Under the pieces are notes generated by a model, which was given only the letters and a program-made list of their open reading frames with translations, did no database searches and had not been told where the DNA came from. Shown here in pieces: positions 24 to 26,362 of a DNA stretch of 64,000 nucleotides (position 1 is its first letter; every line of letters begins with the position of its first letter). The translations under genes were made by a program, and so were the position numbers. Source of the DNA: Escherichia coli (GTDB lineage Bacteria; Pseudomonadota; Gammaproteobacteria; Enterobacterales; Enterobacteriaceae). The stretch lies in the NCBI RefSeq assembly GCF_044324875.1, contig NZ_CP172186.1; one strand, written 5' to 3'.

Positions 24-914
24 TCAGGCTGCCAGATCATCGTTTCCGATGGAAGCATAATAAGCTTTTTCTGCTTCTGCCGGTGGGATATGGCCCAGCC
101 TTTCCAGCAATCGTCGATTGTTATACCAGTCCACCCACGTGAGTGTGGCCAGCTCCACTTCTGTCCGGTTTTTCCAGCTCTTACGGTGTATTACCTCCGC
201 TTTGTAAAGGCCATTGATGCTCTCCGCCATCGCGTTGTCATACGAGTCACCAGTACTTCCTGTTGATGCCAGTAATCCGGCTTCCTTAAGCCGCTGTGTG
301 TAGGCCAGCGATACATACTGAGAACCTTTATCACTGTGATGGACTGTGCCGGACGGTCGACGGGCCCATAACGCCTGCTCCAGAGCATCCAGCACGAATG
401 TCGTTTCCATAGACGATGAGACCCGCCACCCCACGATGTATCCGGCAAACACATCAATGATGAACGCCACATAGACGACCCCCTGCCATGTGCTGACGTA
501 AGTAAAATCAGCCACCCACAACTGGTCAGGACGTTCTGCCACAAACTGACGGTTTACGCGGTCGCCTGCGGCAACGGCTTTCCGGCTGACGGTAGTGCGG
601 ACCTTTTTACCCCGGAGAACACCGGCAAGTCCCATAACCGCCATGAGGCGCGCCACTGTACATCTGGCTACCCTGATTCCTTCCCGTAACAACTGACGCC
701 AGACTTTACGCACACCGTATACCTGATGATTCCCATCGTATACGCGCAGTATCTCTTTCTTCAGCCAGTCATCGCGCTGCGCACGGGCACTGCGTTTATA
801 AGGATGATGTCGCTGTTGCTGACAGTGGTAATACGTTGACGGGGCAATATGTAGTTCACTGCATACCGGTCCGACCCCGTACAGCTTACGCAGCTTATCC
901 AGCAGTGGCATCAC
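24..914 (-). CDS. IS3-family transposase OrfB (DDE integrase core)
   Basis: 296-aa ORF, one substitution relative to 25472-26362; HSDKGSQY...YDNAMAES motif. Confidence 0.9.
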
Positions 915-1163
915 TTTTTCCAGAGGCGGTCGAACTCCGCCTTCGCAAAATAAGCGGAAGCCTGGCGAAGGATATCGTTACTGCGGCGCAGTTCACGATT
1001 TTCACGTTCCAGCTCTTTCAGACGCTGACGTTCAGCGGTGGTGAGCCCGCCATCACCGCCTCCGGTATCCCGCTCATGCTGGCGTACCCAGACACGCAGG
1101 GTCTCTGGCGTACAGCCAATCTTTGGAGCAATGGAACAAATTGCCGCCCACTGTGAGTCATAT
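911..1163 (-). pseudogene. 5'-truncated orfA of the IS629-like element
   Basis: Reverse complement matches the 3' two-thirds of orfA 25149-25475; N-terminal coding sequence absent. Confidence 0.7.
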
Positions 1164-6570: not shown

Positions 6571-7669
6571 TGTGATTATCCTCGGTATCTGTGGCTTTCA
6601 GGAACAGGCTGACGGTAGTGGCGTCTTTCAGGATGCCGGACGGCAGGTGCCAGCCGGTATCGGATAACACCCATGGGGTACCGCCAAAACCGAACTGGCG
6701 GAAAGCCTGGTTATTGACATCGATGGCAGCACGAGCAGCGGTCAGACACTTTTCATCCGGTGCAGCCGGTGCATCGCCGGTGGGTGCCATACCACCGTCT
6801 GCGGAATACAGCTGATGCCATCCGGTCGCCCGTTTTTGTGCGTCCGGTTCACACAGCAGTGGCGCAGTCCGGTTTGTGCTGGCCTCTCCGCCGATTACGG
6901 AGACCGGATAAATCACCACGCTGAATTCCCGGGCCAGTTGCTTAAGCGCGGGCTCCAGAAGACGGCAGTTGATGCATGCGGGGTCAAGGAAGGCGTAGAG
7001 TGTGCGTTCATGACCAGTGGAGAGATTAATGGTGAACATACCCCGGTCCGCGTTGCGTTTAAGTACAGTGGCCAGATTACGGCGGGCTTCAGCGACCAGA
7101 GTATTTTTGTCTGCTGTTATCGCCGGGGTAGCGGATGTCTCCTGCATTTCCTGTGATGCCGGGTGAACGATTTCATTTTTCGTCTCTGACGGGGCTACTG
7201 ACCGGACAATTTCCTTGTCGATGTGTAATGGTGCTGTTTCTGTTACGGATTCTGTGACAGGTACCCTGAGAGGGGAATCGCTGTCCGGTTTCAGTAAAAT
7301 ATATCCGGCTGTTACCGCTGTCAGAAGTGCCAGCACTAATCCTGCACCGTATATCAGCCCTCTCATGAAGCTGGTTTTCCGGGCAGGAAGTTCTGCATAT
7401 GCCGCGCTCAGACAGCTGTCAATCGCGGAGAGCATTCTGCCGATGTGATGTCCGGGACGTTCAGTATCAACGGTATCAACAAGCAGTGTTTCGGTTATTT
7501 CACGAAAAGGGGTGCTGAAGGACAGGTGCATCAGCCTGTTATTACGGTTAATCAGTGCGCCCAGTTCTGTAACCGGCAGGATGGCAATAACCTCCTGACC
7601 ACCGTCAGGGTACAGGGCGGTCAGGGACAGGTGTTTATTGTTCAGTGTTGCAGTGTAGCGGATGGTCAT
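6551..7669 (-). CDS. trbB: TrbB, DsbC-like thiol:disulfide interchange protein
   Basis: 372 aa, TM/signal anchor, thioredoxin-type CINC (CxxC) motif; coupled between trbA and trbC. Confidence 0.65.
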   Translation of the reverse strand: MTIRYTATLNNKHLSLTALYPDGGQEVIAILPVTELGALINRNNRLMHLSFSTPFREITETLLVDTVDTERPGHHIGRMLSAIDSCLSAAYAELPARKTSFMRGLIYGAGLVLALLTAVTAGYILLKPDSDSPLRVPVTESVTETAPLHIDKEIVRSVAPSETKNEIVHPASQEMQETSATPAITADKNTLVAEARRNLATVLKRNADRGMFTINLSTGHERTLYAFLDPACINCRLLEPALKQLAREFSVVIYPVSVIGGEASTNRTAPLLCEPDAQKRATGWHQLYSADGGMAPTGDAPAAPDEKCLTAARAAIDVNNQAFRQFGFGGTPWVLSDTGWHLPSGILKDATTVSLFLKATDTEDNHNEPASR

Positions 7670-8982
7670 TGTGCTTTTTCCTTGTCGGCGGGATGCTGTT
7701 TTTCGGTGGTTTCGGTGGTTTCGGTGGTTTCGGTGGTTTCGGTGGTTTCGGTGGTTTCGGTGGTTTCACCAGTGTCAGTGTCTTCGTCGTTATCATGGCG
7801 GCGGGGTATCACGTCATCCGTGAGTGACCAGCGGGTCCTGATCTGACGTTTACGATCGCGATCTGGCTGAGGTTCGTCCCATATCAGGCCCAGCCCCAGC
7901 ATGTCCCGTCGAAGCCCTTCAATGGCCTCTTCCACACAGGGTTCCGGGCAGGGGAGGCCGAGACGGCTGGCTTCATTTTCTGCCCGGGCAACGGCCACCA
8001 CGCCGGCCCCTTCGATGAAGCCTTTTGTGGTGTTTGCCCGGTGAAGGGCATAGAAGAGCGTCCGGTCAACGCCCTTGAGCCACAGCCAGTTCGGAGGCGT
8101 CAGGCGCAAATCATGTGCGTAAAGCCAGACCAGACCGCTGCGAACGTAACGGTGCTGCCTGAGCCACTTTTGTGCGCCTTCTGTTTTGATGACCCGGATA
8201 AAGGCGTTTCTGGCCAGTGAATACACCGGCGTGCTGAAACGCCCCTGGTCCCGTTTACTTTTGAGCCTGCAGGAGAGATTGAGGTTGTTCATCAGGGCTA
8301 CCGCTGCTTTCCGGTCACCGAGGAAGAACTGCAGGCCAAAGATGGCAAAGAGCGCTTTTTCATGTGGGGCCATGTCTTTCCAGCTGGTCAGTGGTTGCCC
8401 CAGTTGCGCCATGAAGCACTGGCGTGTGGACGCAACATCGAGCTGCATGTTGCGGATAAGGTTGTTCTGCTCCACAAAGGCTTCGGGGGTTAGTGCGACA
8501 CGGCGCTCGGGACGTTTTTGTCCGTGGAAGAGTCTGTTGTTGTCTCCGTCAGCCAGAACGGGGGCGATCGCCGGTGACAGAGCTGAAAAAATATGGGGCA
8601 GTGTGTGGATATTCAGTGGCCTGCGGGTAAAACGGGGCTGGGCCGGATGGTGAAACCACATCCACAGAAAGCCGAATGTCATGGGAAGCAGAATCAGCCA
8701 GAGGATCCCCACTGTCCGGGACATAACATCCAGCCACTGGCTGAAAGTGATGGTTGCCGCGTTGTTAGCAGTGATGGCCAGCAGGTTGTAACGGGGGACG
8801 GCAAAGTTGTGAAAGGGCCCCCAGTCAATCATGCCCCACAGTGTGTGCAGGATCAGGCAGGAGGCGAAGACGATTTCAGGTAAAAAGCGCCAGATGATAA
8901 TCGCAAAGAGCAGGCATATGGCACCGACGATATACCATATAGCCATTGGATCTTCGGCGGCAGACGTCTGTTGGTAAGACAC
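7666..8982 (-). CDS. trbA: TrbA/DotM(IcmP)-like inner-membrane protein with C-terminal (TET)n acidic repeat
   Basis: 438 aa, several TM segments; position and size fit IncI1 TrbA. Confidence 0.65.
   Translation of the reverse strand: MSYQQTSAAEDPMAIWYIVGAICLLFAIIIWRFLPEIVFASCLILHTLWGMIDWGPFHNFAVPRYNLLAITANNAATITFSQWLDVMSRTVGILWLILLPMTFGFLWMWFHHPAQPRFTRRPLNIHTLPHIFSALSPAIAPVLADGDNNRLFHGQKRPERRVALTPEAFVEQNNLIRNMQLDVASTRQCFMAQLGQPLTSWKDMAPHEKALFAIFGLQFFLGDRKAAVALMNNLNLSCRLKSKRDQGRFSTPVYSLARNAFIRVIKTEGAQKWLRQHRYVRSGLVWLYAHDLRLTPPNWLWLKGVDRTLFYALHRANTTKGFIEGAGVVAVARAENEASRLGLPCPEPCVEEAIEGLRRDMLGLGLIWDEPQPDRDRKRQIRTRWSLTDDVIPRRHDNDEDTDTGETTETTETTETTETTETTETTEKQHPADKEKAQ
7701..7766. repeat. Tandem 9-bp repeat TTTCGGTGG x7 (coding, minus strand ACCGAAACC = Thr-Glu-Thr)
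   Basis: Seven perfect head-to-tail copies inside the 3' end of trbA. Confidence 0.9.
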
Positions 8983-9292
8983 GGGGATTCCTCCATAGAT
9001 GAATGGATAAATTTCGGGATTAAGTCGGGTGGCATGAATGCGAATCAGCGCCGGTAATAACCGGACAGGAATGAATTCAACAGGACATTTTTACAGAGAA
9101 GAGCGAACGGCAGAAGGTGGTGGGAGACAGGTACAAAAAAACCGACTGGTGAGGCCGGTTTTTTTGCGATTCCGGGGTGGAGTTGGTGGCTCTGACCGGA
9201 GGAAGTCTCTTTTCAGCTAACAATGAGAGAGCTGTTGTGACAGGCAATGTAAGAGTAAGCAGCAGTGATTTCCTCCATTGACGGAGAAACGG

Positions 9293-9376
9293 ATGATTAA
9301 CCTGTTAATCATCGTTCTCAGGGCGGTTGTTGCTGTGGCTAACGCAGTGATAGCTCTCCGGGAACTGGTTGACTGA
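9293..9376 (+). CDS. 27-codon hydrophobic peptide MINLLIIVLRAVVAVANAVIALRELVD (candidate type I toxin-like small membrane peptide)
   Basis: ATG 7 nt downstream of GGAGA; single predicted TM helix; hairpin 9399-9428 just downstream; below ORF-track length cutoff. Confidence 0.3.
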   Translation: MINLLIIVLRAVVAVANAVIALRELVD

Positions 9377-9785
9377 TAATCCCGGAAACGTACTTAAGGG
9401 CAGAGGGTCACCTCCTTCTGCCCTTTAACAAAATATGCTCAGGTTAAAAATCGAAAACCTTCCTGCACTTCCTGTGCCTGTTCCCGTGAGCCAAACATGA
9501 GCCGGCTTTTACCCGGAACTCCCCAGGAAATATATTCTACATCCACCCACCATTTTCCGTATTCTTCATACGGTCCGGATATCACTTTAGTGACAAATGC
9601 ATCAATCAGGTTCATTTTTACACCTTTCTGTTATTCTGCTTATTACGACCAGCAGACAGCAAATATTAAAAATAACGCGGCGGTAATGCGTATTCCGCTC
9701 TATTCGATCACGGATTGGCATCGAAGTCCGATCAGCGATTCGCATCCATTCGATCAACCGGGAACTTAACTTTTTCTACCGCTTT

Positions 9786-10565
9786 TTAACGCGTTTTTTC
9801 GCTGCTTTCCACTACCGGGGGATTTTTCCTCAGTGACTCTCCCTGAAGGACCACTCGGTGTGAGTTATGTACCAGTCTGTCCAGGATGGCATCTGCTGTT
9901 GTTGGGTTCTCCATCAGACCATGCCATTTATCTACCGGGAACTGGCTTACCACTATCGTGCTGCTTTGTCCGTAACGATCCTCTATGAGCTCCAGAAGGT
10001 CATTACACTGGGCGTTACTTAACTGTTCCAGCCCCAGATCGTCCAGGATTAGAACCTGTATTTTTTGCAACTGTTTCAGATATTTCAGCCAGCTGCCATC
10101 AACACGTCCCTGAGCCAGTTGTTCCAGTAATCGCCCGGTTCTACAGTACCGGACGCTGTGTTTCTGTCGACATGCCTGTTCGCCCAGCGCATTGGCTATC
10201 CAGCTCTTGCCACATCCTGTCGGACCGGTTATCAGCAGGTTTTTCCTGTGGGTTATGTAGTGGCCGTTCAGCAGTTCTCTCATCTGTTCAGCCCGCAGAC
10301 CTCTTGAGGCCGGATAGCGCAGCCCTTCCGGTGTTGCCTGGTATTTCAGGCCGGCATTTTTTCTCAACCGTGCCACACGGCTGTTTTCCCTGCTCAGAAG
10401 CTCGTCATCAACCAGCAGCGTCAGCCTTTCCTCGAACGACAGTTCGTCGTAGGTCTGAGGCGTTTCCCGCTGCCGTATCAGGCTCCCGGCCATCGCCGGG
10501 AGTTTCAGTTGGGTCAGTTTGTTTAACAGGTTATCACTCATACTGTTGTTCCTTCTGTCAGTGGT
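9786..10565 (-). CDS. istB: IS21-family helper ATPase IstB
   Basis: Walker A GPTGCGKSW, DnaC-like AAA+; start taken at MSDNLLNKL inside the 332-aa ORF. Confidence 0.9.
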   Translation of the reverse strand, partial: TTDRRNNSMSDNLLNKLTQLKLPAMAGSLIRQRETPQTYDELSFEERLTLLVDDELLSRENSRVARLRKNAGLKYQATPEGLRYPASRGLRAEQMRELLNGHYITHRKNLLITGPTGCGKSWIANALGEQACRQKHSVRYCRTGRLLEQLAQGRVDGSWLKYLKQLQKIQVLILDDLGLEQLSNAQCNDLLELIEDRYGQSSTIVVSQFPVDKWHGLMENPTTADAILDRLVHNSHRVVLQGESLRKNPPVVESSEKTR

Positions 10566-12204
10566 AGTAGCCCGGACCACGCAGGTTTTCATGCTCTGAA
10601 GCATATGCCGGATGTTGTTCGCCCTGGCGGGATAATGGAAGCTCCAGGTTCTCCCGATGGTGACGCAGCAGATTGTCGATAAAGCGTCTGTCAGGGGCGT
10701 TATAGTGCAGGGCAACGTAACAGGCCTTTTCCAGCCGTTCCGGGCCGTATTTTTTCTGAAGTGCCAGCAGCCCCAGAACTGCACGATAAGCCAGTTCCGG
10801 ATGGGGTTTTGCCTTCAGCATGGATTCAACCACCCGGCCTGTGGACGGGCCCGTACGTTTTCCCTGCTCGATCAGGCGTTCCGGTGTCCATGTCCCGTGC
10901 TGCCGGTGGCGCTCTGGCATGTGAAGCGGATTGGTTGTGTGTTTATATTCATGTGTGCTGCGCGGATGTTGCGCCACACACTGCCCCTTGTGCCAGAGCT
11001 GTACCACCGACTGCCCCGCCTTCAGTGACAGACGCTGACCGACCAGTTCGTGTGGAACGGAGTACCAGTGACGGGCATATTCAACGTGGTAGTCAGGGCC
11101 AACCTTCACAGCTTTGTATTCCGTGTATTCATAAGGTGCCAGAGGCAGCGGAGAGAGTGCTGGCGCATCCAGTATGCGGAAGCGTTCTGCACGGGTTTGA
11201 TTGCCGTACCCCTTCATTGGCCGGTTATTCATGTCTGTCAGTAACTCCCTAAGGCGCGCATTCAGCGCCCTGAGCGTGTGGAAGGTTTCATTACGGATGC
11301 GGGCAAGAAGCCATCGTTCAACGATGAGGACGCCGTTTTCTGCTTTTGGTTTATCTTTAGGTTTGCGTGGTCGGGCCGGGATGATAACCGTGCCATAGTG
11401 CTCAGCCAGTGCCTGATAACTGTCGTTGATGACAGGCTCATATCGATCGGCCTTTTTCACTGCGCTTCTGAGGTTATCGGGGATGAGCAGCTTCGGTACG
11501 CCGCCCAGGAAGGTCAGGCAACGGCTGTGGGCATTTAACCATGACATCATGTCCTGACCTTCGCACGCTTCAACGTAGGTATAGTTGGACGCCCCCATTA
11601 CGGCCACGAAGATTGCCACGCGGCGTATCTCACCGGTGTCCGGATTAATAACAGGAACCGTAGGACCACAGAAGTCGATAAAAAGCTTTTCGCCGGCACG
11701 ATGCTCCTGGCGCATGGAGAGACGTCGCGTTTTTTTCCACTCCCGGTAGCAACGGCAGAAGTGCGAGTATCCCATCGCTTTGTTACCCGCCTGTGCCTTG
11801 TATTCCATCCACAACAGTTGCCGCGTCACACCTGGTTTTCTCATTTCCGTATCGAAGTACAACATGTCAGGCATTACAAGCTCTGATGCAAAGGTGTCTT
11901 TGGGCGGAAAAATGAGTTTCTCCAGCGTGTCATGGGATATATCAGCAGGTAATGGCCATGACAGAGAAGAGGCTTTGAAGCGGGCAAGAACCTCAAAAAC
12001 GGTTGAGGCGCTGATGTGTAACGTCAGTCCGATACAACGGTTAGTCAGCTTCTTGTCGAACTTGAGCTGAAGGATCTTAAAACAGGTTTCCATAGTGCTC
12101 CTGGATTTTCTCTTTCTGGACATTGACGTCTCCACTGGTTTAAACACGGCAATGGAGACTGTGGTGAAAAGAGTTAATTCCCGGAGTGACTGGCAGGATG
12201 CCAA
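10558..12204 (-). CDS. istA: IS21-family transposase IstA (true start probably internal, METCFKIL at ~12093)
   Basis: N-terminal HTH, LSWPLPA motif, DDE core; 2-nt spacing to istB. Confidence 0.9.
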   Translation of the reverse strand: MASCQSLRELTLFTTVSIAVFKPVETSMSRKRKSRSTMETCFKILQLKFDKKLTNRCIGLTLHISASTVFEVLARFKASSLSWPLPADISHDTLEKLIFPPKDTFASELVMPDMLYFDTEMRKPGVTRQLLWMEYKAQAGNKAMGYSHFCRCYREWKKTRRLSMRQEHRAGEKLFIDFCGPTVPVINPDTGEIRRVAIFVAVMGASNYTYVEACEGQDMMSWLNAHSRCLTFLGGVPKLLIPDNLRSAVKKADRYEPVINDSYQALAEHYGTVIIPARPRKPKDKPKAENGVLIVERWLLARIRNETFHTLRALNARLRELLTDMNNRPMKGYGNQTRAERFRILDAPALSPLPLAPYEYTEYKAVKVGPDYHVEYARHWYSVPHELVGQRLSLKAGQSVVQLWHKGQCVAQHPRSTHEYKHTTNPLHMPERHRQHGTWTPERLIEQGKRTGPSTGRVVESMLKAKPHPELAYRAVLGLLALQKKYGPERLEKACYVALHYNAPDRRFIDNLLRHHRENLELPLSRQGEQHPAYASEHENLRGPGYYH

Positions 12205-12408
12205 TCAATGATCGGAAGCATGCCAAATCGTGATCGATTGTGATGCCAAACTGTGATCGGAGATGGATGCCAAATCATGATCGATTCGAATGCCAAACTG
12301 CGATCGATTCAGATGCCATTTTGCAGGTAAAAATGGCAATTTTTTTCATGCTGTATTTTTGCCATTTATTTTCTTTGAAATGGTTTTTTTCTTCATATCA
12401 GCAAATAA

Positions 12409-12876
12409 TTATTTCTTATTCTGTTTTCTCCAGGTCCATGGTGGTACCGGATTTTTATCTGCCCATAATCCCCGCTTCAGGGCGCGGGCATCACGCTGGA
12501 GCGGCGGGAGAGTATAGTCATTATTGTAGTCCGGGTACACCCAGGCAGCGCCGTTACGGACCTGCCAGCGATTTGCTTCTGTGCCGTCAGCGGTATAGAC
12601 CCGGCCGAGAATACGGCCATACCTGTCTGTCTGCGCGTATTGCACGGTTACGGGCTTTCCGGCCACCAGGTCCTTCAGCTGAGTGGCTGACCAGCGTCCA
12701 AAGGGCTGTTTCTTTTCCGGTGCATCAATATTAGCCAGACGGACCCTGACAGGCTTTTTGTCCTGTAATATTTCCAGCGTATCACCATCAAGAACGCGGA
12801 TGACGTGCCCCTGAATCTGTGCGGCACAGAGAGAAGCGGAAAAAATAATGGTGAGTGAAAAGATATATTTTATCAT
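12409..12876 (-). CDS. nuc: Secreted thermonuclease (staphylococcal nuclease/SNase-like) Nuc
   Basis: 155 aa, signal peptide, VIRVLDGDT and RLANIDAPE motifs typical of SNase fold. Confidence 0.8.
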   Translation of the reverse strand: MIKYIFSLTIIFSASLCAAQIQGHVIRVLDGDTLEILQDKKPVRVRLANIDAPEKKQPFGRWSATQLKDLVAGKPVTVQYAQTDRYGRILGRVYTADGTEANRWQVRNGAAWVYPDYNNDYTLPPLQRDARALKRGLWADKNPVPPWTWRKQNKK

Positions 12877-14647: not shown

Positions 14648-14901
14648 CGGTGGGGTACAAACGCAGAAATTTTGTTGTCATTACATCATCAGTTTTAGCC
14701 TGCAGAGACGCTGAAAAATCAGCGTTTTCAGACCCTGTTCAGGTTAGTGAATATTCTTGCCTGGCCTTTCGGCAATATCAATCCCCTGATGTGTGCACAC
14801 GTAGTCACTTTCCGGCTTTATTTCTGTCCCTGACACAAAATACGTGGTGGCATGAAAAGGATTGTGGCGGACAGGAAAACGATTAGAATAGCGGCGGGCG
14901 C

Positions 14902-15195
14902 TTGAGGCTGTATGCCGAAAGCGTTTTGTGGACGGCATGTAGCAGAAAGCCCCAGGCGATTTTTTTATCAATCAACCCAGGGCCCACTGTAATGCCTAGA
15001 CAACATTATAGTAGCCCGATGACGGCCGAAAGGCAATGGAGGGGCTGCGATGCCACAACGAACGTTTTTAATGATGTTAATCGTCGTCTGTGTGACGATA
15101 CTGTGTTTTGTCTGGATGGTGAGGGATTCGCTTTGCGGATTTCGTATCGAGCAGGGAAATACGGTGCTTGTGGCAACGTTAGCCTACGAAGTTAA
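14902..15195 (+). CDS. Possible pndC (mok-like) overlapping reading frame of the pnd locus
   Basis: ORF in alternative frame overlapping the Hok-family toxin gene, as in hok/mok loci; real start uncertain. Confidence 0.35.
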   Translation: MRLYAESVLWTACSRKPQAIFLSINPGPTVMPRQHYSSPMTAERQWRGCDATTNVFNDVNRRLCDDTVFCLDGEGFALRISYRAGKYGACGNVSLRS

Positions 15196-15202
15196 ACGTT
15201 AA
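15050..15202 (+). CDS. pndA: Hok/Gef-family type I toxin PndA
   Basis: Hand-translated 50 aa MPQRTFLMMLIVVCVTILCFVWMVRDSLCGFRIEQGNTVLVATLAYEVKR; GGAGG 9 nt upstream; not in ORF track (<60 aa). Confidence 0.85.
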   Translation: MPQRTFLMMLIVVCVTILCFVWMVRDSLCGFRIEQGNTVLVATLAYEVKR

Positions 15203-15339
15203 CGGGCAACACGGCGGTAGAGAATCTGCCGCCGGATTGTTGCGAAGGCTGACCTCAATGCGCCTTGTTTGTCTTTTTTACCGGACGACTGCTGGTTGCT
15301 GCTGTCCGGCAGCTATTATTTTTTCCGTCCTGTGCGTCA

Positions 15340-15555
15340 TCAATTATGACAGTCGCTCTCATTTAGTTGTCTCTGGTTAGATGTATTATTATATATTTTC
15401 GGGGTAATTCGATAAAAGTTATCCACTTCAGCACCAGACTGAATGATATATGCAATAAGATCTAAACGATGAATCTCGTATCGTGTACGTAACTCCATTA
15501 TTTCACGCCATGGAGTACCATGTCGTGCTGGAAAATTGCTGCGGGATTCAGACAT
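15340..15555 (-). CDS. Hypothetical small protein in AT-rich segment
   Basis: 71-aa ORF only; no recognisable domain. Confidence 0.25.
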   Translation of the reverse strand: MSESRSNFPARHGTPWREIMELRTRYEIHRLDLIAYIIQSGAEVDNFYRITPKIYNNTSNQRQLNESDCHN

Positions 15556-15828: not shown

Positions 15829-16476
15829 TCAAAATACTTCTGCAACAGGAACACCGGCAACTTTTTCCCACTCTTTAACCCGATACCGGATCATCTGTGG
15901 GAAACGTTCCTTGTACTCATATCCACGTGCAGCCATGGTGTGCATGGTGTTGGCCAGCGTCCTTGCTGAGATGCCGGAGATCTCAAGAGGAATCATCGGC
16001 AGACTCACATAGGTGGTGTGGATTTCCAGCTTGCCGTCCTCAGCAACCGTGCGGGTAAAGTTGTGAATATCCAGACCAATCACATCCATCACATTGTTTG
16101 GATAAATACGCACATACAGCATGGTGCCGTTTTTAATGTCGATCCCGAAATAACAACTCTTCGAGAATGACAGTTGCTCATAATCGCTGGTCGGCGCAAA
16201 GGGACTGCTTTCTTTTATCTGCTGAACAACCTGCTGGACTTTCTTTTTCTTCGCCCTGGTTCTTAGATATAGCCAGAGTAATGGGAGGATAATCAGCGTT
16301 GAACATCCATATGTTATCATATAGATATTAGGGGAGGAGTATCTGGCGTAGCTAATACTTAATGTACCTAATATTGCATATATTAATAGGAATGGTATTC
16401 CAATAATAAAATAAGCATTGCGGATCAGGTAATAATATGCCCACCAGGAAGGATATCTGTTTTTTGTTGTACTCAT
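15829..16476 (-). CDS. Inner-membrane protein, putative entry-exclusion ExcA-like
   Basis: 215 aa, N-terminal TM helices, AT-rich, immediately downstream of traY as excA is in IncI1; assignment by position. Confidence 0.45.
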   Translation of the reverse strand: MSTTKNRYPSWWAYYYLIRNAYFIIGIPFLLIYAILGTLSISYARYSSPNIYMITYGCSTLIILPLLWLYLRTRAKKKKVQQVVQQIKESSPFAPTSDYEQLSFSKSCYFGIDIKNGTMLYVRIYPNNVMDVIGLDIHNFTRTVAEDGKLEIHTTYVSLPMIPLEISGISARTLANTMHTMAARGYEYKERFPQMIRYRVKEWEKVAGVPVAEVF

Positions 16477-16563: not shown

Positions 16564-18723
16564 TTATTGTTTTATTCCGTCTTTATCATCTCTATTAATA
16601 TTTTTCAGTTTTTCTTCACGAACGCCAGGTGTTCTGCGCATATTGGTATTACCTCCGGCAATAATATCTTTGACGGATGAAACCATATTCCCCAGCATAT
16701 TAACACCGTCACGTCCGCCCAGAAAATTAATCACATGGTCAGGCAGATAAGCCTGAAGCGCAAAAACGGCCGCAACCAGCGTGGTACAGACTCGGGCATA
16801 AATCAGCAAAAATCCTGCCATGCTGAATAGCCCCGTCAGGGAGTCTGTCTGTACATTGGCCAGTGCAGCTCCAAACAACGAATTTAGAATGGTTCCGGCA
16901 GCAATGATAGCGACTGACGCAAAGAAGAACCCGAATACCATCAGCAGCGGTCTGATCATGCTGTCTATCAGGTAGATGTAACCGTAAGCGGCCCGGCTTC
17001 CCCGGTCCTGGCTTGTTCCCAGGTGGGTGGCCGCCCAGAGGGGGCCAGCAGCACATCCAATCAGCACGCTGACTATCCAGTTACCAATGCCGGTCATCCA
17101 GAAGATAAACGGAATAAACGGCAGGTAAATGGATAACGAAAAGCCGGCACAGAACAGCAAAAACAGCAGGAAGTAGAGCGGTGGAGCGGCTGCTTCCATA
17201 AAAGCCTTTGCAGCCTCAGGTAAGCCCGTAACGGTATTAACCAGCCGACCAAAAATGGAGTTGCTGCCGGCAGTCGAAAGCACCCTGACTGTGGTATAAC
17301 CCGCCCAGATGCTTTCAGTAATGCCCATAGTGTAATCACCGATATTTTTCATTTTTATCAGTGGGTTTAGTTGGTCAGTGGTTGTGCCGGTTTTTGTAAA
17401 GATTGTTGCTACATTATTTGTAAGTTCTACTCCAGGAATTGAACTTAAAATAGCACTTTGCGGATCGTTACTGCCTGCGCTGTTATATTCATTTGCTGAT
17501 TTTAATGTTCCCAGTGCAGGAGTATACGTTGAGTTCTGTAGCTGTGCCTGGTAAGCCCCCTTGACTTCCTTCAGGAACTCCGTATCCCCGGCTTCGCCCA
17601 GTGACGAGACGCCACTCACAGTAGGAGCGCGGTTGGCCAGGTCTTCCAGTCGCTGGTTGGCGGTGGCAAAGGTCTGGTACCAGGCGCCCAGGGCAACCCA
17701 GCCGTAGGTGGTCAGGTAGGATTTCAGCTGCTCCCTGCGCTCAGTTTCTGCGTTATCTGCCGGCAACGCCTTCTGCACCGTTTCTTCATACCGGTTGGCA
17801 GCCTGCTGAATACGGCTTTCAATATCCGGCAGGTTGCCGTTACCCGTGTCGCGTCGGGTCCGGTACGCTGACACAAATTCCTGCGCCGCGCTGTCCAGGT
17901 CACGGAGCATGGTATCCATGGCGGAGCGCTGTGCCGTCAGAACCCCCTGATATTCCGTTTCAATGAAGGGATTGAAAAAATGGGCCAGCGCGGACTGCTT
18001 GTTACTGCCGTTTCCTTTCACGGAGAGACTCACACTCCCGCAGGTGGCGCTGCCATTTGAGACGGTGACGGTATATCTGCCATTCTCTGTCCGTGAGGAT
18101 TCGCTCATGGGCGGCGTTGATGAACGTGCGGTACGGTTAAAGTCATCGAGGCCCGTATTCATGGCGTGTTTGCACAGTTCCATCTCCAGTATTCCCCGTG
18201 CTGCCGTGCGGGTGGAGACATGTACTGGCTGTACGGTCATTGAATAGCCTTCAGCGATGTTTTCTGCCGCTGTCTGAACCATGATATTGGCGGAACCGAT
18301 GCCCATGATGGATGCGCCCCACAGCATGACCAGTTGTGCCAGACTCCAGCCGGAAGCGGTGGGCACAATCATCATAAAACCGCTCACAATACTGAGCATT
18401 CCGACGACGTCCCGTCCGTTGTTAAAGACATTGCCCTGGTGTCCCGTGCGGACAGCATGACGGATACCAATAAACAGAAACCAGACTATCCCCATCGTGG
18501 CGATAATTGCGTTAAACACCATGAACAGGTTGCCAATGATGGTGTTGCTGCTGGCTGTCAGGGGATTTGTGACCACATCACCAAAAATGGTGACCAGTGC
18601 CTGGCGCGACAGGTCATCCGGATTGGTGGCGGCACTCACAATGTCCTGATAGGTGACGAAAGCCTGTGCAGGTACGGCAGCCAGCGCCAGACCTGCACTC
18701 AGTGCTCTGGGTATGATTTTCAC
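16564..18723 (-). CDS. traY: TraY, polytopic inner-membrane protein (DotA-like)
   Basis: 719 aa, signal peptide plus many TM helices; terminal gene of tra block. Confidence 0.75.
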   Translation of the reverse strand: MKIIPRALSAGLALAAVPAQAFVTYQDIVSAATNPDDLSRQALVTIFGDVVTNPLTASSNTIIGNLFMVFNAIIATMGIVWFLFIGIRHAVRTGHQGNVFNNGRDVVGMLSIVSGFMMIVPTASGWSLAQLVMLWGASIMGIGSANIMVQTAAENIAEGYSMTVQPVHVSTRTAARGILEMELCKHAMNTGLDDFNRTARSSTPPMSESSRTENGRYTVTVSNGSATCGSVSLSVKGNGSNKQSALAHFFNPFIETEYQGVLTAQRSAMDTMLRDLDSAAQEFVSAYRTRRDTGNGNLPDIESRIQQAANRYEETVQKALPADNAETERREQLKSYLTTYGWVALGAWYQTFATANQRLEDLANRAPTVSGVSSLGEAGDTEFLKEVKGAYQAQLQNSTYTPALGTLKSANEYNSAGSNDPQSAILSSIPGVELTNNVATIFTKTGTTTDQLNPLIKMKNIGDYTMGITESIWAGYTTVRVLSTAGSNSIFGRLVNTVTGLPEAAKAFMEAAAPPLYFLLFLLFCAGFSLSIYLPFIPFIFWMTGIGNWIVSVLIGCAAGPLWAATHLGTSQDRGSRAAYGYIYLIDSMIRPLLMVFGFFFASVAIIAAGTILNSLFGAALANVQTDSLTGLFSMAGFLLIYARVCTTLVAAVFALQAYLPDHVINFLGGRDGVNMLGNMVSSVKDIIAGGNTNMRRTPGVREEKLKNINRDDKDGIKQ

Positions 18724-25148: not shown

Positions 25149-25475
25149 ATGACTAAAAATACTCGTTTTTCCCCCGAAGTCCGTCAGAGGGCGATTCGTA
25201 TGGTTCTGGAAAGTCAGGGCGAATATGACTCACAGTGGGCGGCAATTTGTTCCATTGCCCCAAAGATTGGCTGTACACCGGAGACTCTGCGTGTCTGGGT
25301 ACGCCAGCATGAGCGGGATACCGGAGGCGGTGATGGCGGGCTCACCACCGCTGAACGTCAGCGTCTGAAAGAGCTGGAACGTGAAAATCGTGAACTGCGC
25401 CGCAGTAACGATATCCTTCGCCAGGCTTCCGCTTATTTTGCGAAGGCGGAGTTCGACCGCCTCTGGAAAAAGTGA
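25149..25475 (+). CDS. IS3-family transposase OrfA (HTH)
   Basis: 108 aa [19 protein letters not shown]..., leucine-zipper region; overlaps orfB start. Confidence 0.9.
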
Positions 25476-26362
25476 TGCCACTGCTGGATAAGCTGCGTAA
25501 GCTGTACGGGGTCGGACCGGTATGCAGTGAACTACATATTGCCCCGTCAACGTATTACCACTGTCAGCAACAGCGACATCATCCTGATAAACGCAGTGCC
25601 CGTGCGCAGCGCGATGACTGGCTGAAGAAAGAGATACTGCGCGTATACGATGGGAATCATCAGGTATACGGTGTGCGTAAAGTCTGGCGTCAGTTGTTAC
25701 GGGAAGGAATCAGGGTAGCCAGATGTACAGTGGCGCGCCTCATGGCGGTTATGGGACTTGCCGGTGTTCTCCGGGGTAAAAAGGTCCGCACTACCGTCAG
25801 CCGGAAAGCCGTTGCCGCAGGCGACCGCGTAAACCGTCAGTTTGTGGCAGAACGTCCTGACCAGTTGTGGGTGGCTGATTTTACTTACGTCAGCACATGG
25901 CAGGGGGTCGTCTATGTGGCGTTCATCATTGATGTGTTTGCCGGATACATCGTGGGGTGGCGGGTCTCATCGTCTATGGAAACGACATTCGTGCTGGATG
26001 CTCTGGAGCAGGCGTTATGGGCCCGTCGACCGTCCGGCACAGTCCATCACAGTGATAAAGGTTCTCAGTATGTATCGCTGGCCTACACACAGCGGCTTAA
26101 GGAAGCCGGATTACTGGCATCAACAGGAAGTACTGGTGACTCGTATGACAACGCGATGGCGGAGAGCATCAATGGCCTTTACAAAGCGGAGGTAATACAC
26201 CGTAAGAGCTGGAAAAACCGGACAGAAGTGGAGCTGGCCACACTCACGTGGGTGGACTGGTATAACAATCGACGATTGCTGGAAAGGCTGGGCCATATCC
26301 CACCGGCAGAAGCAGAAAAAGCTTATTATGCTTCCATCGGAAACGATGATCTGGCAGCCTGA
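25472..26362 (+). CDS. IS3-family transposase OrfB (DDE)
   Basis: 296 aa, rve domain; made as OrfAB fusion by -1 frameshift in this family. Confidence 0.9.

What the first reader, a model, noticed from the sequence alone, without database searches (positions are those of the whole stretch)
14902..15202. hok/sok-type post-segregational killing module (pndCA) with the 50-aa toxin missing from the ORF track
The hand-translated 50-aa protein is a typical Hok/Gef/PndA toxin. The overlapping alternative-frame ORF is in the position of mok/pndC. The antisense RNA and fold-back elements should lie in about 14950-15060 but were not mapped here.
Basis: partly seen in the sequence, partly recalled or inferred. 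Interest (0 to 1): 0.4.

Follow-up and report, generated by a model that had tools for sequence, protein, structure and literature searches.

The report
Known pnd plasmid-addiction toxin–antisense module
This is an intact copy of the long-known pnd (pndBCA) hok/sok-type killer module of IncI-complex conjugative plasmids, with a toxin gene identical to that of plasmid R16, so it is real but ordinary.

Summary
Window 15050-15202 (+) encodes a 50-aa Hok/Gef toxin (Pfam PF01848, E 1.3e-12). Its CDS is nucleotide-identical to PndA of plasmid R16 (UniRef PNDA1_ECOLX). The leader 14896-15052 matches the Rfam hok/sok leader model at 125.6 bits against a 59-bit threshold.

The conserved cassette runs from 14855 to 15264, at 90% identity to R64. 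Every element of the hok/sok paradigm can be placed by homology and folding:
- mRNA promoter 14862-14889, with +1 at about 14896
- tac 14896-14906, and its metastable partner 14919-14925
- ucb 14946-14953
- pndC SD 14979-14983, and pndC 14992-15195 (67 aa)
- PndB target loop 14995-15003
- PndB antisense RNA at about 15001 to 14938 (-), with its promoter at 15036 to 15008
- pndA SD 15038-15042
- 3' stem-loop 15213-15233
- fbi 15254-15265

- The 97-aa ORF starting at TTG 14902 begins 6 nt from the mRNA 5' end. Its first 30 codons are not conserved, so pndC starts at ATG 14992.
- The fold-back elements lie at the two mRNA ends, outside 14950-15060.
- The toxin is "missing" from the ORF track only because it is shorter than the default 60-aa cut-off.

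The system is already known, so interest is low. One minor point: the antisense recognition loop exists in two common alleles.

The parts
14862..14889 (+). pnd mRNA promoter: -35 TTGTGG (14862-14867), 16-nt spacer, -10 TAGAAT (14884-14889)
   Evidence: Read from the sequence. The -10 hexamer is invariant and the -35 is TTGTGG or TTGTTG in all six aligned plasmids. The geometry matches F flm, where TATGAT is followed by 6 nt and then GGCGC. The simple promoter scan did not report it. Inferred, not shown.
14896..15267 (+). Full-length pnd mRNA, about 372 nt. The 3'-processed active form would end just after the 15213-15233 stem-loop, at about 15234-15238.
   Evidence: The 5' end equals the first position of the Rfam RF01794 match and lies 7 nt after the -10. 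The 3' end is placed by homology to the 398-nt hok/flm mRNA, which ends a few nt after fbi. Conservation with R64 stops at 15264. The fold has z = -5.8 against shuffles.
14896..14906 (+). tac (translational activator element), GGGCGCUUGAG
   Evidence: It pairs with 15254-15265 in the full-length MFE fold. It pairs with ucb in the free leader. It is invariant in the six-plasmid alignment and shared with F flm.
14919..14925 (+). Partner of tac in the metastable 5' hairpin of the nascent transcript (AAGCGUU)
   Evidence: The 35-nt nascent RNA folds with nt 2-8 paired to nt 24-30, at -15.1 kcal/mol. The concept comes from hok (PMC9841398).
14946..14953 (+). ucb (upstream complementary box, the anti-SD of pndC), AAAGCCCC
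   Evidence: It pairs with the pndC SD (GCCC 14949-52 with GGGC 14980-83) in the full-length fold. It pairs with tac in the free leader and in the Rfam consensus.
14938..15001 (-). PndB antisense RNA (antitoxin), about 64 nt. It has a single-stranded 5' tail GUCUAGGCAUUA, then a stem-loop, then the tail GGGGCUUUCUGCU. Both ends are uncertain by about 2-3 nt.
   Evidence: It lies 6-7 nt downstream of the conserved -10. It is positionally homologous to Sok of R1 and F (and R1 numbering). Its fold is a 12-13 nt free tail plus a hairpin, -24.9 kcal/mol, z = -3.5. Transcription was not shown here.
15008..15036 (-). PndB promoter: -35 TTGCCT (15036 to 15031), 17-nt spacer, -10 TACTAT (15013 to 15008). 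A TATAAT overlaps at 15010 to 15005.
   Evidence: Read from the sequence. Both hexamers are invariant in six plasmids while three spacer positions vary. It aligns base for base with TTGCGC-17-TATCCT of the F flm sok-type promoter. The simple scan did not list it.
14979..14983 (+). Shine-Dalgarno region of pndC (AGGGC)
   Evidence: It lies 9 nt upstream of ATG 14992 and is positionally equivalent to the GAGG mok SD of R1. It pairs with ucb in the full-length fold and with dcb in the free leader.
14992..15195 (+). pndC (mok homologue), 67 codons. It overlaps pndA in another frame, and its translation is coupled to that of pndA.
   Evidence: The exact 67-aa sequence is in the protein collection, and its cluster mates are named 'PndC' or 'counter protein to PndA'. 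The start M-[PL]-R-Q-H is conserved in R64 and F flmC. The frame upstream of the ATG is not conserved. Window versus R64 gives 2 synonymous and 13 non-synonymous codon differences, so the product is not under purifying selection.
14986..15012 (+). Antisense target hairpin. The 9-bp stem contains the pndC AUG, and the 9-nt loop CCUAGACAA (14995-15003) carries a YUNR motif (CUAG).
   Evidence: Folds, and the Rfam consensus hairpin. The loop is perfectly complementary to the PndB 5' tail, with a duplex energy of -17.2 kcal/mol.
15014..15017 (+). dcb (downstream complementary box), GCCC
   Evidence: It pairs with the pndC SD GGGC in the free-leader fold and in the Rfam consensus.
15038..15042 (+). 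Shine-Dalgarno sequence of pndA (GGAGG)
   Evidence: It lies 7 nt upstream of ATG 15050 and is invariant in the alignment.
15050..15202 (+). pndA, the 50-aa Hok/Gef-family membrane toxin
   Evidence: Pfam PF01848, E 1.3e-12. The protein equals UniRef PNDA1_ECOLX. The CDS is 153/153 nt identical to 'PndA_R16' in the supplement of bioRxiv 10.1101/2025.08.07.668861. Family-invariant residues C14, T16, R25, L28, C29, G36 and A45-Y46-E47 are present.
15213..15233 (+). 3' stem-loop (GGCGGUAGA-GAA-UCUGCCGCC) that would cap and protect the 3' end of the processed mRNA
   Evidence: Folds. It is 100% paired in six plasmids, with two wobble-preserving changes (helix 12). It is positionally equivalent to the GGCGGGC-GCAG-GCCCGCC hairpin of flm and hok.
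15254..15265 (+). fbi (fold-back inhibitory element), CUCAAUGCGCCU
   Evidence: It pairs with nt 1-11 (tac) in the full-length MFE fold. The same 5'-3' closure is predicted for R64 and for the F flm positive control. The helix is 95.5% paired across six plasmids (helix 1).

Best explanation
Window 14855-15264 is an intact pndBCA cassette, the hok/sok-homologous type I toxin-antitoxin (post-segregational killing) module of IncI-complex conjugative plasmids. This copy is the R16-type allele.

Inferred mechanism, by homology with hok/sok of R1 and pnd of R483:
1. A constitutive promoter makes a stable mRNA of about 372 nt.
2. While the mRNA is nascent, its 5' tac element is held in a metastable hairpin.
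3. When the mRNA is complete, tac pairs with the 3' fbi element. The pndC Shine-Dalgarno is then sequestered by ucb, and the mRNA is translationally inert.
4. Slow 3' exonucleolytic trimming back to the 15213-15233 stem-loop removes fbi.
5. tac then pairs with ucb and the leader refolds. This exposes the pndC start region and the target hairpin.
6. In plasmid-carrying cells, the short-lived 64-nt antisense PndB RNA is made from a strong promoter on the opposite strand. Its 5' tail binds the target loop, blocks pndC translation and hence the coupled translation of pndA. The duplex is cut by RNase III.
7. In cells that lose the plasmid, PndB decays first. pndC and pndA are then translated, and the 50-aa PndA damages the inner membrane and kills the cell.

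Shown here: the sequence identity, the family membership and the presence, conservation and predicted pairing of each element. Inferred from the literature: transcription, processing, RNase III cleavage and killing.
For: Toxin: Pfam HOK_GEF E 1.3e-12. The protein equals PNDA1_ECOLX. The CDS is nucleotide-identical to PndA_R16.

Leader: Rfam RF01794 at 125.6 bits against a 59-bit threshold, over the full model length 1-157.

Cassette boundaries: 90% identity to R64 over exactly 14855-15264, with unrelated flanks.

pndC: its start is conserved in R64 and in F flmC, and cluster mates are named PndC.

Folding: the full-length RNA closes 5' to 3' (tac/fbi) with ucb paired to the pndC SD, z = -5.8. 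The free leader adopts tac/ucb plus SD/dcb plus the target hairpin, which matches the Rfam consensus. The nascent 35-mer forms the metastable hairpin. PndB folds as a free 5' tail plus a hairpin.

Positive controls: F flm and R64 give the same 5'-3' closure.

Promoters: hexamers of both promoters are invariant across six plasmids while spacer positions vary.

Selection: the substitution pattern is 5 synonymous to 4 non-synonymous in pndA, against 2 to 13 in the pndC frame. This fits a model in which translation of pndC matters but its product does not.

Context: the cassette lies in the IncI transfer region between trbA and excA/traY, where the literature places pnd (PMC7602700; PMC5330492). 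The mechanism is described in PMC9841398 and PMC4147584.
Against: Nothing contradicts the identification. There are five caveats.
1. No expression data are available; both promoters and all RNA ends are inferred. The simple promoter scan did not flag either promoter.
2. Among the six close relatives there are no double-sided compensatory changes, only 21 wobble-preserving one-sided ones. The shuffle control is therefore uninformative. Comparative support for the structure comes mainly from the Rfam model.
3. MFE folding shows the target hairpin in both the full-length and the truncated forms. The documented refractoriness of the full-length mRNA to the antisense RNA is therefore not reproduced in silico.
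4. NCBIfam Hok models score below their curated cut-offs: 66.7 against 89 bits, and 41.5 against 73 bits.
5. In one IncI plasmid, pESBL, deleting pnd alone did not change stability (PMC7602700). The contribution to maintenance therefore depends on context.
Confidence: 0.95

Rival explanations
1. The cassette is a decayed, non-functional relic of pnd, as many chromosomal hok loci are. It would be retained only by hitch-hiking in the transfer region.
For: Decayed copies exist. An IncF plasmid carries a pnd remnant in which the toxin's transmembrane segment is deleted (L009). A pESI-like megaplasmid matched only the first ~120 bp of the cassette (L010). Deleting pnd in pESBL gave no stability phenotype on its own (PMC7602700).
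Against: Here every element is intact: both promoters, tac, ucb, both SDs, both reading frames, the target loop, the 3' stem-loop and fbi. The CDS is identical to the R16 gene. The authors of bioRxiv 10.1101/2025.08.07.668861 report that they could not clone that CDS without mutations, which suggests toxicity. The same DNA is at 99% identity or more in 246 plasmids.
Confidence: 0.03
2. The module is functional as a toxin-antisense pair, but its main benefit to the plasmid is something other than segregational stability. Examples are competition with related plasmids or abortive-infection-type phage exclusion, as reported for hok/sok against T4.
For: Deleting pnd alone did not destabilise pESBL (PMC7602700). 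hok/sok on a high-copy plasmid protected against T4 (reviewed in PMC4147584). Two recognition-loop alleles coexist at high frequency, 1249 against 579 plasmid records, which could reflect inter-plasmid competition.
Against: The native pnd locus of R483 mediates post-segregational killing (cited). Neutralising pndBCA was sufficient to allow curing of an IncI1 plasmid in vivo (PMC5330492). The molecular mechanism would be the same in either case, so this rival concerns selective benefit, not identity.
Confidence: 0.12
3. The 97-aa ORF 14902-15195, taken, is a genuine protein-coding gene.
For: It is an open frame of 97 codons. Gene callers have occasionally produced extended versions of 70-102 aa in the same cluster.
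Against: TTG 14902 lies 6 nt from the inferred mRNA 5' end, inside the tac helix, and has no SD. A 1-nt indel in R64 shifts the upstream part into another frame, and F flm has in-frame stops there. Pfam and NCBIfam give no significant hit. The conserved start is ATG 14992.
Confidence: 0.02

Closest known systems
pnd of plasmid R16 (IncB); PndA = UniRef PNDA1_ECOLX
   Same: The pndA CDS is identical at all 153 nt, and the protein is identical. By implication it is the same allele of the whole cassette.
   Different: No difference was found in the CDS. The R16 record itself was not in the collections, so the non-coding parts of the cassette and its flanks could not be compared directly.
pnd (pndBCA) of R483 / R64 / ColIb-P9 (IncI1); PndA = PNDA2_ECOLX. 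This is the experimentally dissected pnd system.
   Same: The architecture and all elements are the same. Identity is 90% at the nucleotide level over 410 bp and 92% at the protein level. Both lie in the transfer region near trbA and excA, and both have a 67-codon pndC.
   Different: There are four amino-acid changes: V13I, F31L, I33L and E34Q. There is a 1-nt indel just upstream of the pndC ATG. The antisense recognition loop and PndB 5' tail differ at 2 nt (CCUAGAC against CUUCGAC). In R64 the cassette abuts trbA. Here it lies about 5.9 kb from trbA, separated by dqlB, an IS21 insertion, nuc, an HTH gene and small ORFs.
hok/sok (parB) of plasmid R1 and flm of F
   Same: The organisation is the same: a long structured leader, tac/fbi 5'-3' closure, ucb and dcb, an overlapping mok-type frame starting in the antisense target, an antisense RNA of about 64 nt with a free 5' tail, and a 3' protective hairpin. 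The antisense promoters align base for base.
   Different: The toxin is only 34% identical, at 50 aa against 52 aa. The leader is about 15 nt shorter (157 nt here against 172 nt matched in F). The mRNA is about 372 nt against 398 nt. The antisense and target sequences differ, so cross-regulation is not expected.

Membership tests
Hok/Gef toxin family (Pfam PF01848) | A protein of about 50 aa that matches the HOK_GEF profile, with an N-terminal transmembrane segment and the conserved Cys, Arg and AYE residues | tested here: met
   PF01848 gives E 1.3e-12 and 47.5 bits against a 22-bit cut-off. The NCBIfam HokA and Hok models score below their stricter cut-offs.
hok/sok-type type I toxin-antitoxin locus | A structured 5' leader of the toxin mRNA matching the family covariance model | tested here: met
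   Rfam RF01794 gives 125.6 bits against a 59-bit gathering score, over the full model 1-157, on the toxin (+) strand.
hok/sok-type type I toxin-antitoxin locus | An overlapping mok-type reading frame that starts inside the antisense target and ends within the toxin gene | tested here: met
   ATG 14992 to TAA 15195 gives 67 codons. The start is conserved with R64 pndC and F flmC. Cluster mates are named PndC.
hok/sok-type type I toxin-antitoxin locus | A cis-encoded antisense RNA of about 60-70 nt with its own promoter, a free 5' tail complementary to a target loop (YUNR), and a terminal hairpin | tested here: met
   The promoter is TTGCCT-17-TACTAT on the minus strand, and both hexamers are invariant in six plasmids. 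The predicted RNA has a free tail of 12-13 nt plus a hairpin. The loop CCUAGACAA contains CUAG, and the cognate duplex energy is -17.2 kcal/mol. This was tested at the sequence and fold level only.
hok/sok-type type I toxin-antitoxin locus | Long-range tac/fbi complementarity between the mRNA ends, with ucb sequestering the mok-type SD in the full-length form and tac/ucb pairing after truncation | tested here: met
   The full-length MFE pairs nt 1-11 with 15254-15265, and GCCC (ucb) with GGGC (SD). The free leader gives tac/ucb plus SD/dcb. R64 and F flm give the same 5'-3' (tac/fbi) closure. The element definitions come from PMC9841398.
hok/sok-type type I toxin-antitoxin locus | A metastable 5' hairpin in the nascent transcript | tested here: met
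   In the 35-nt RNA, nt 2-8 pair with nt 24-30 at -15.1 kcal/mol, and 2 of 200 shuffles fold as well. This is a prediction only.
hok/sok-type type I toxin-antitoxin locus | 3' processing of the mRNA, RNase III cleavage of the duplex, differential RNA stability, and killing of plasmid-free segregants | not testable with these tools
   These are known for R1 hok/sok and R483 pnd from the literature. No expression or phenotype data exist for this sequence.
pnd subfamily (pndBCA of IncI-complex plasmids) | The PndA sequence and a location in the IncI-type transfer region | tested here: met
   The protein is identical to PNDA1_ECOLX / PndA_R16. The cassette lies between trbA and excA/traY on an MPF_I, MOBP plasmid backbone.

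The most novel reading that the evidence does not exclude
The pnd family has two common alleles of the antisense recognition determinant. The target loop / PndB 5' tail is CCUAGAC / GUCUAGG in this window (R16 type, about 1249 PLSDB records). It is CUUCGAC / GUCGAAG in the R64/R483 type (about 579 records). Mosaic cassettes also exist. The predicted kissing duplex drops from about -17 to between -7 and -10 kcal/mol for non-cognate pairs. The two alleles may therefore be separate specificity (immunity) classes, in which PndB of one plasmid neutralises the other's toxin mRNA poorly. That would matter for competition between IncI-complex plasmids. It would also matter for antitoxin-based plasmid-curing designs, which have assumed a single pndB sequence.
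Probability: 0.3. Interest if true: 0.3.

Novelty: already known. Interest (0 to 1): 0.06.

Why it matters
It matters little for discovery. pnd has been characterised since the 1980s and 1990s, and it is routinely listed as the addiction system of IncI-complex resistance plasmids.

Its practical value is for annotation:
- The antisense gene, pndC and the regulatory elements are not annotated in the RefSeq/PGAP annotation or in the (incomplete) PLSDB gene tables checked here. Only a 'Hok/Gef family protein' CDS is present there.
- The Rfam 'sok' hit falls on the mRNA strand.
- A base-level map of the R16-type allele is useful for people engineering or curing these plasmids.

The two recognition-loop alleles are a small, testable side issue.

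Tried and rejected
(1) The simple sigma-70 and terminator scan over 14700-15450 found neither pnd promoter. Both were placed instead by homology and conservation.

(2) I looked for covariation among six pnd cassettes. There were no double-sided compensatory changes and the shuffle control was flat. The relatives are too close, at 89-99% identity, to prove the structure independently.

(3) Records AP005147 and HG970648 were not in the collections. R64 was obtained as NC_005014 instead. No record I inspected annotates pndB or pndC, so coordinates could not be copied from an annotation.

(4) With tac blocked in the isolated 127-nt leader, folding did not reproduce ucb/SD pairing. That pairing appears only in the full-length fold. 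I do not rely on the isolated-leader result for the closed form.

(5) I rejected the 97-aa ORF as a gene.

(6) I rejected the idea that this is an R1-type hok/sok or F flm copy, because toxin identity is only 34%.

(7) I considered whether the + strand terminator-like hairpin at 15293-15315 is the pnd terminator. It lies outside the region conserved with R64, which ends at 15264, so it is probably not part of the cassette. Read-through to it is not excluded.

Full report
OBSERVATION

One is a 50-codon ATG ORF at 15050-15202 (+). The other is an overlapping alternative-frame ORF at 14902-15195 (+), with a TTG start and 97 codons.

The 50-aa product matches Pfam HOK_GEF (PF01848) with E 1.3e-12, at 47.5 bits against a 22-bit cut-off. 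It scores below the stricter NCBIfam cut-offs for HokA and the Hok family. The 97-aa product matches nothing significant.

A scan of Rfam finds one strong hit in the region. RF01794 ('sok') scores 125.6 bits against a 59-bit gathering score, E 1.4e-29, covering 14896-15052 over the full model length. The hit is on the + strand and the model ends at the toxin's AUG. It therefore describes the toxin mRNA leader, not the antisense RNA itself.

The toxin is absent from an ORF track only because it is shorter than the usual 60-aa threshold. RefSeq annotates the identical sequence as 'Hok/Gef family protein' WP_001302699.1.

WHAT IT IS

The 551 bp around the finding occur at 99% identity or more in 246 plasmid records, and in 1892 records overall. 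Nearly all are conjugative plasmids of Escherichia, Salmonella or Shigella. In E. coli, 1800 of 1867 places are on plasmids. The best matches are typed IncI1/B/O or IncK2/Z, with a MOBP relaxase and MPF_I mating-pair formation.

The local gene order in the window is as follows:
- trbA, 7666-8982 (-)
- a DinQ-like dqlB toxin gene, 9294-9377 (+)
- an IS21-family insertion, 9687-12325
- nuc, 12409-12876 (-)
- an HTH gene, then small ORFs
- the Hok-family gene
- a remnant of a TnsA-like gene
- excA, 15829-16476 (-)
- traY, 16564-18723 (-)

This is the transfer region of an IncI-complex plasmid, which is where the literature places pnd (PMC7602700; PMC5330492).

The 50-aa sequence is exactly UniRef PNDA1_ECOLX, 'Protein PndA'. 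Its 153-nt CDS is identical, base for base, to the entry '15_1423_PndA_R16' in supplementary file 10 of bioRxiv 10.1101/2025.08.07.668861. The R64/R483-type PndA (PNDA2_ECOLX) is 92% identical, and FlmA/Hok of F is 34% identical.

Alignment with R64 shows that homology begins abruptly at 14855 and ends at 15264, at 90% identity, with unrelated flanks. This 410-bp block is the cassette.

ANATOMY

mRNA nucleotide n corresponds to window position 14895 + n.

Toxin mRNA promoter. The -35 is TTGTGG (14862-67) and the -10 is TAGAAT (14884-89). The 5' end falls at about 14896, which is also the first position of the Rfam match. The geometry copies that of F flm.

pndC. Its conserved start is ATG 14992 and it runs to TAA 15195, 67 codons. 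The evidence is:
- That exact protein is in the public collection, and cluster mates are named PndC.
- Its first residues, M-[PL]-R-Q-H, align with R64 PndC and F FlmC.
- Upstream of the ATG the frame is shifted by a 1-nt indel in R64 and closed by stops in flm.

It is not a start codon.

Between the window and R64, pndA shows 5 synonymous and 4 non-synonymous codon differences. The pndC frame shows 2 and 13. This fits the published view that translation of mok/pndC matters, not its product (PMC9841398).

Antisense gene. On the minus strand, TTGCCT (15036 to 15031), a 17-nt spacer and TACTAT (15013 to 15008) align position for position with TTGCGC-17-TATCCT of the flm/hok antisense promoter. 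Both hexamers are invariant in six plasmids, while three spacer positions vary.

The predicted PndB RNA runs from about 15001 to about 14938, roughly 64 nt. It folds as a free 5' tail of 12-13 nt (GUCUAGGCAUUA) followed by a stable hairpin and a U-rich tail. The tail is complementary to the 9-nt loop CCUAGACAA (14995-15003) of a hairpin whose stem contains the pndC AUG. The loop carries a YUNR motif, CUAG.

Fold-back control. The full-length RNA 14896-15268 folds at -153.9 kcal/mol, z = -5.8. Nucleotides 1-11 (tac) pair with 15254-15265 (fbi), and ucb (GCCC, 14949-52) pairs with the pndC SD (GGGC, 14980-83).

The free 5' leader folds into tac/ucb plus SD/dcb (dcb = GCCC, 15014-17) plus the target hairpin. 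This is essentially the Rfam consensus structure. The first 35 nt form a hairpin that sequesters tac, the metastable structure. A 9-10-bp stem-loop at 15213-15233 sits where the processed mRNA should end.

These are the conformations described for hok in PMC9841398:
- full-length form: a tac/fbi stem, with the mok SD sequestered by ucb
- truncated form: a tac/ucb stem and an SD/dcb stem
- nascent form: tac paired to the region immediately downstream

As positive controls, the F flm mRNA and the R64 pnd mRNA fold with the same 5'-3' closure.

STRENGTH OF THE STRUCTURAL EVIDENCE

On a six-plasmid alignment, 97% of cells in the predicted full-length structure are standard pairs, against 35-47% for slid controls. 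The structure was derived from one of these sequences. All 21 variant pair types are one-sided (wobble-preserving) changes and there are no double compensatory changes, so the shuffle control is flat. The independent comparative support is therefore the Rfam covariance-model score plus the published work, not this alignment.

MFE folding also shows the target hairpin in both the full-length and the truncated forms. The known inertness of the full-length mRNA towards the antisense RNA is not reproduced in silico. Neither promoter was picked up by the generic promoter scan. Transcript ends are inferred to within a few nucleotides.

MECHANISM

The mechanism is inferred from R1 hok/sok and R483 pnd (PMC9841398, PMC4147584, PMC7602700, and references therein).
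1. A stable, initially inert mRNA is slowly activated by 3' trimming.
2. The unstable PndB RNA binds the activated mRNA through a tail-to-loop contact. It blocks pndC translation and therefore the coupled translation of pndA.
3. The duplex is destroyed by RNase III.
4. Cells that lose the plasmid lose PndB first and are killed by the membrane toxin.

COMPARISON AND NOVELTY

This is the R16-type allele of a well-characterised system, so it is already known.

ONE SIDE OBSERVATION

The recognition determinant differs at two positions between this allele and the R64 type. The loop is CCUAGAC here and CUUCGAC in R64, and the PndB tail is GUCUAGG here and GUCGAAG in R64. The predicted tail-loop duplex falls from about -17 kcal/mol for cognate pairs to between -7 and -10 kcal/mol for non-cognate pairs.

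Exact-word searches find the window-type loop in 1249 plasmid records and the R64-type loop in 579. At least one IncI1-backbone plasmid, p75-02_3, is a mosaic of the two. Whether these alleles are separate specificity classes is untested.

Noticed in passing
window 9133-9377: There is a second type I toxin-antitoxin-like module on the same plasmid. A 27-aa DinQ-like ORF (MINLLIIVLRAVVAVANAVIALRELVD) lies at 9294-9377 (+), and relatives annotate it as dqlB. An Rfam AgrB (RF02891) hit lies at 9133-9220 (-), at 51.8 bits against a 40-bit threshold. The module sits just downstream of trbA. R64 has the same pair (L003:15628-15715 and 15975-16070), and CP032260 carries two dqlB copies.
   Followed up: partly
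window 9687-12325: A 2.64-kb IS21-family insertion is present: istA 10558-12204 (-), with rve and Mu-transposase C-terminal domains, and istB 9786-10784 (-). It is absent from the otherwise 99.3-99.99% identical plasmid pLH50-c-A (NZ_CP100501.1). It separates the dqlB region from nuc.
   Followed up: partly
window 15340-15555 (-), junction near 15508-15512: Only the C-terminal remnant (71-aa ORF) of the 'TnsA endonuclease N-terminal domain-containing protein' remains here. That gene lies directly downstream of pnd in relatives such as NZ_CP032260.1. About 1.37 kb (L001 8648-10015) is missing in the window, and it is also missing in pLH50-c-A.
   Followed up: partly
window 840-956 (-) and 25430-25546 (+): Two identical-scoring Rfam ALIL pseudoknot hits (IS3-family frameshift signal, 116.2 bits each) lie in inverted orientation. 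They bracket the approximately 24-kb trb/pnd/tra segment. This could be a composite or invertible arrangement.
   Followed up: no
window 14896-15052 (+): The Rfam family RF01794 is labelled 'sok antitoxin', but it matches the toxin-mRNA strand. It spans the whole 157-nt leader up to the toxin AUG, in the window, in R64 and in F. Automatic annotation from this hit would place 'sok' on the wrong strand, with the wrong length.
   Followed up: yes
L009 (NZ_CP062813.1, IncFIA/FII plasmid), about 295-590: This is a degenerate pnd remnant, unannotated, at 78.5% identity in two pieces. The toxin frame has lost its transmembrane segment (MPQRTLCGFCFLQGNMVPMATLAHKV...).
   Followed up: partly
L010 (CP114001.1, S. 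Infantis 290-kb megaplasmid), 501-620: Next to trbA, the distant-mode search matched only window 14855-14976, which covers the pnd promoter, tac and the start of the leader. No toxin gene is annotated in the stretch. The locus sequence was not inspected further.
   Followed up: no
window 14995-15003, compared with L003 (R64) 14946-14954: There are two common alleles of the PndB recognition loop. The CCUAGAC allele is in about 1249 PLSDB records and the CUUCGAC allele in about 579. Mosaic cassettes exist, for example p75-02_3. An earlier paper reported identical pndB in all 125 IncI1 plasmids examined (PMC5330492).
   Followed up: partly
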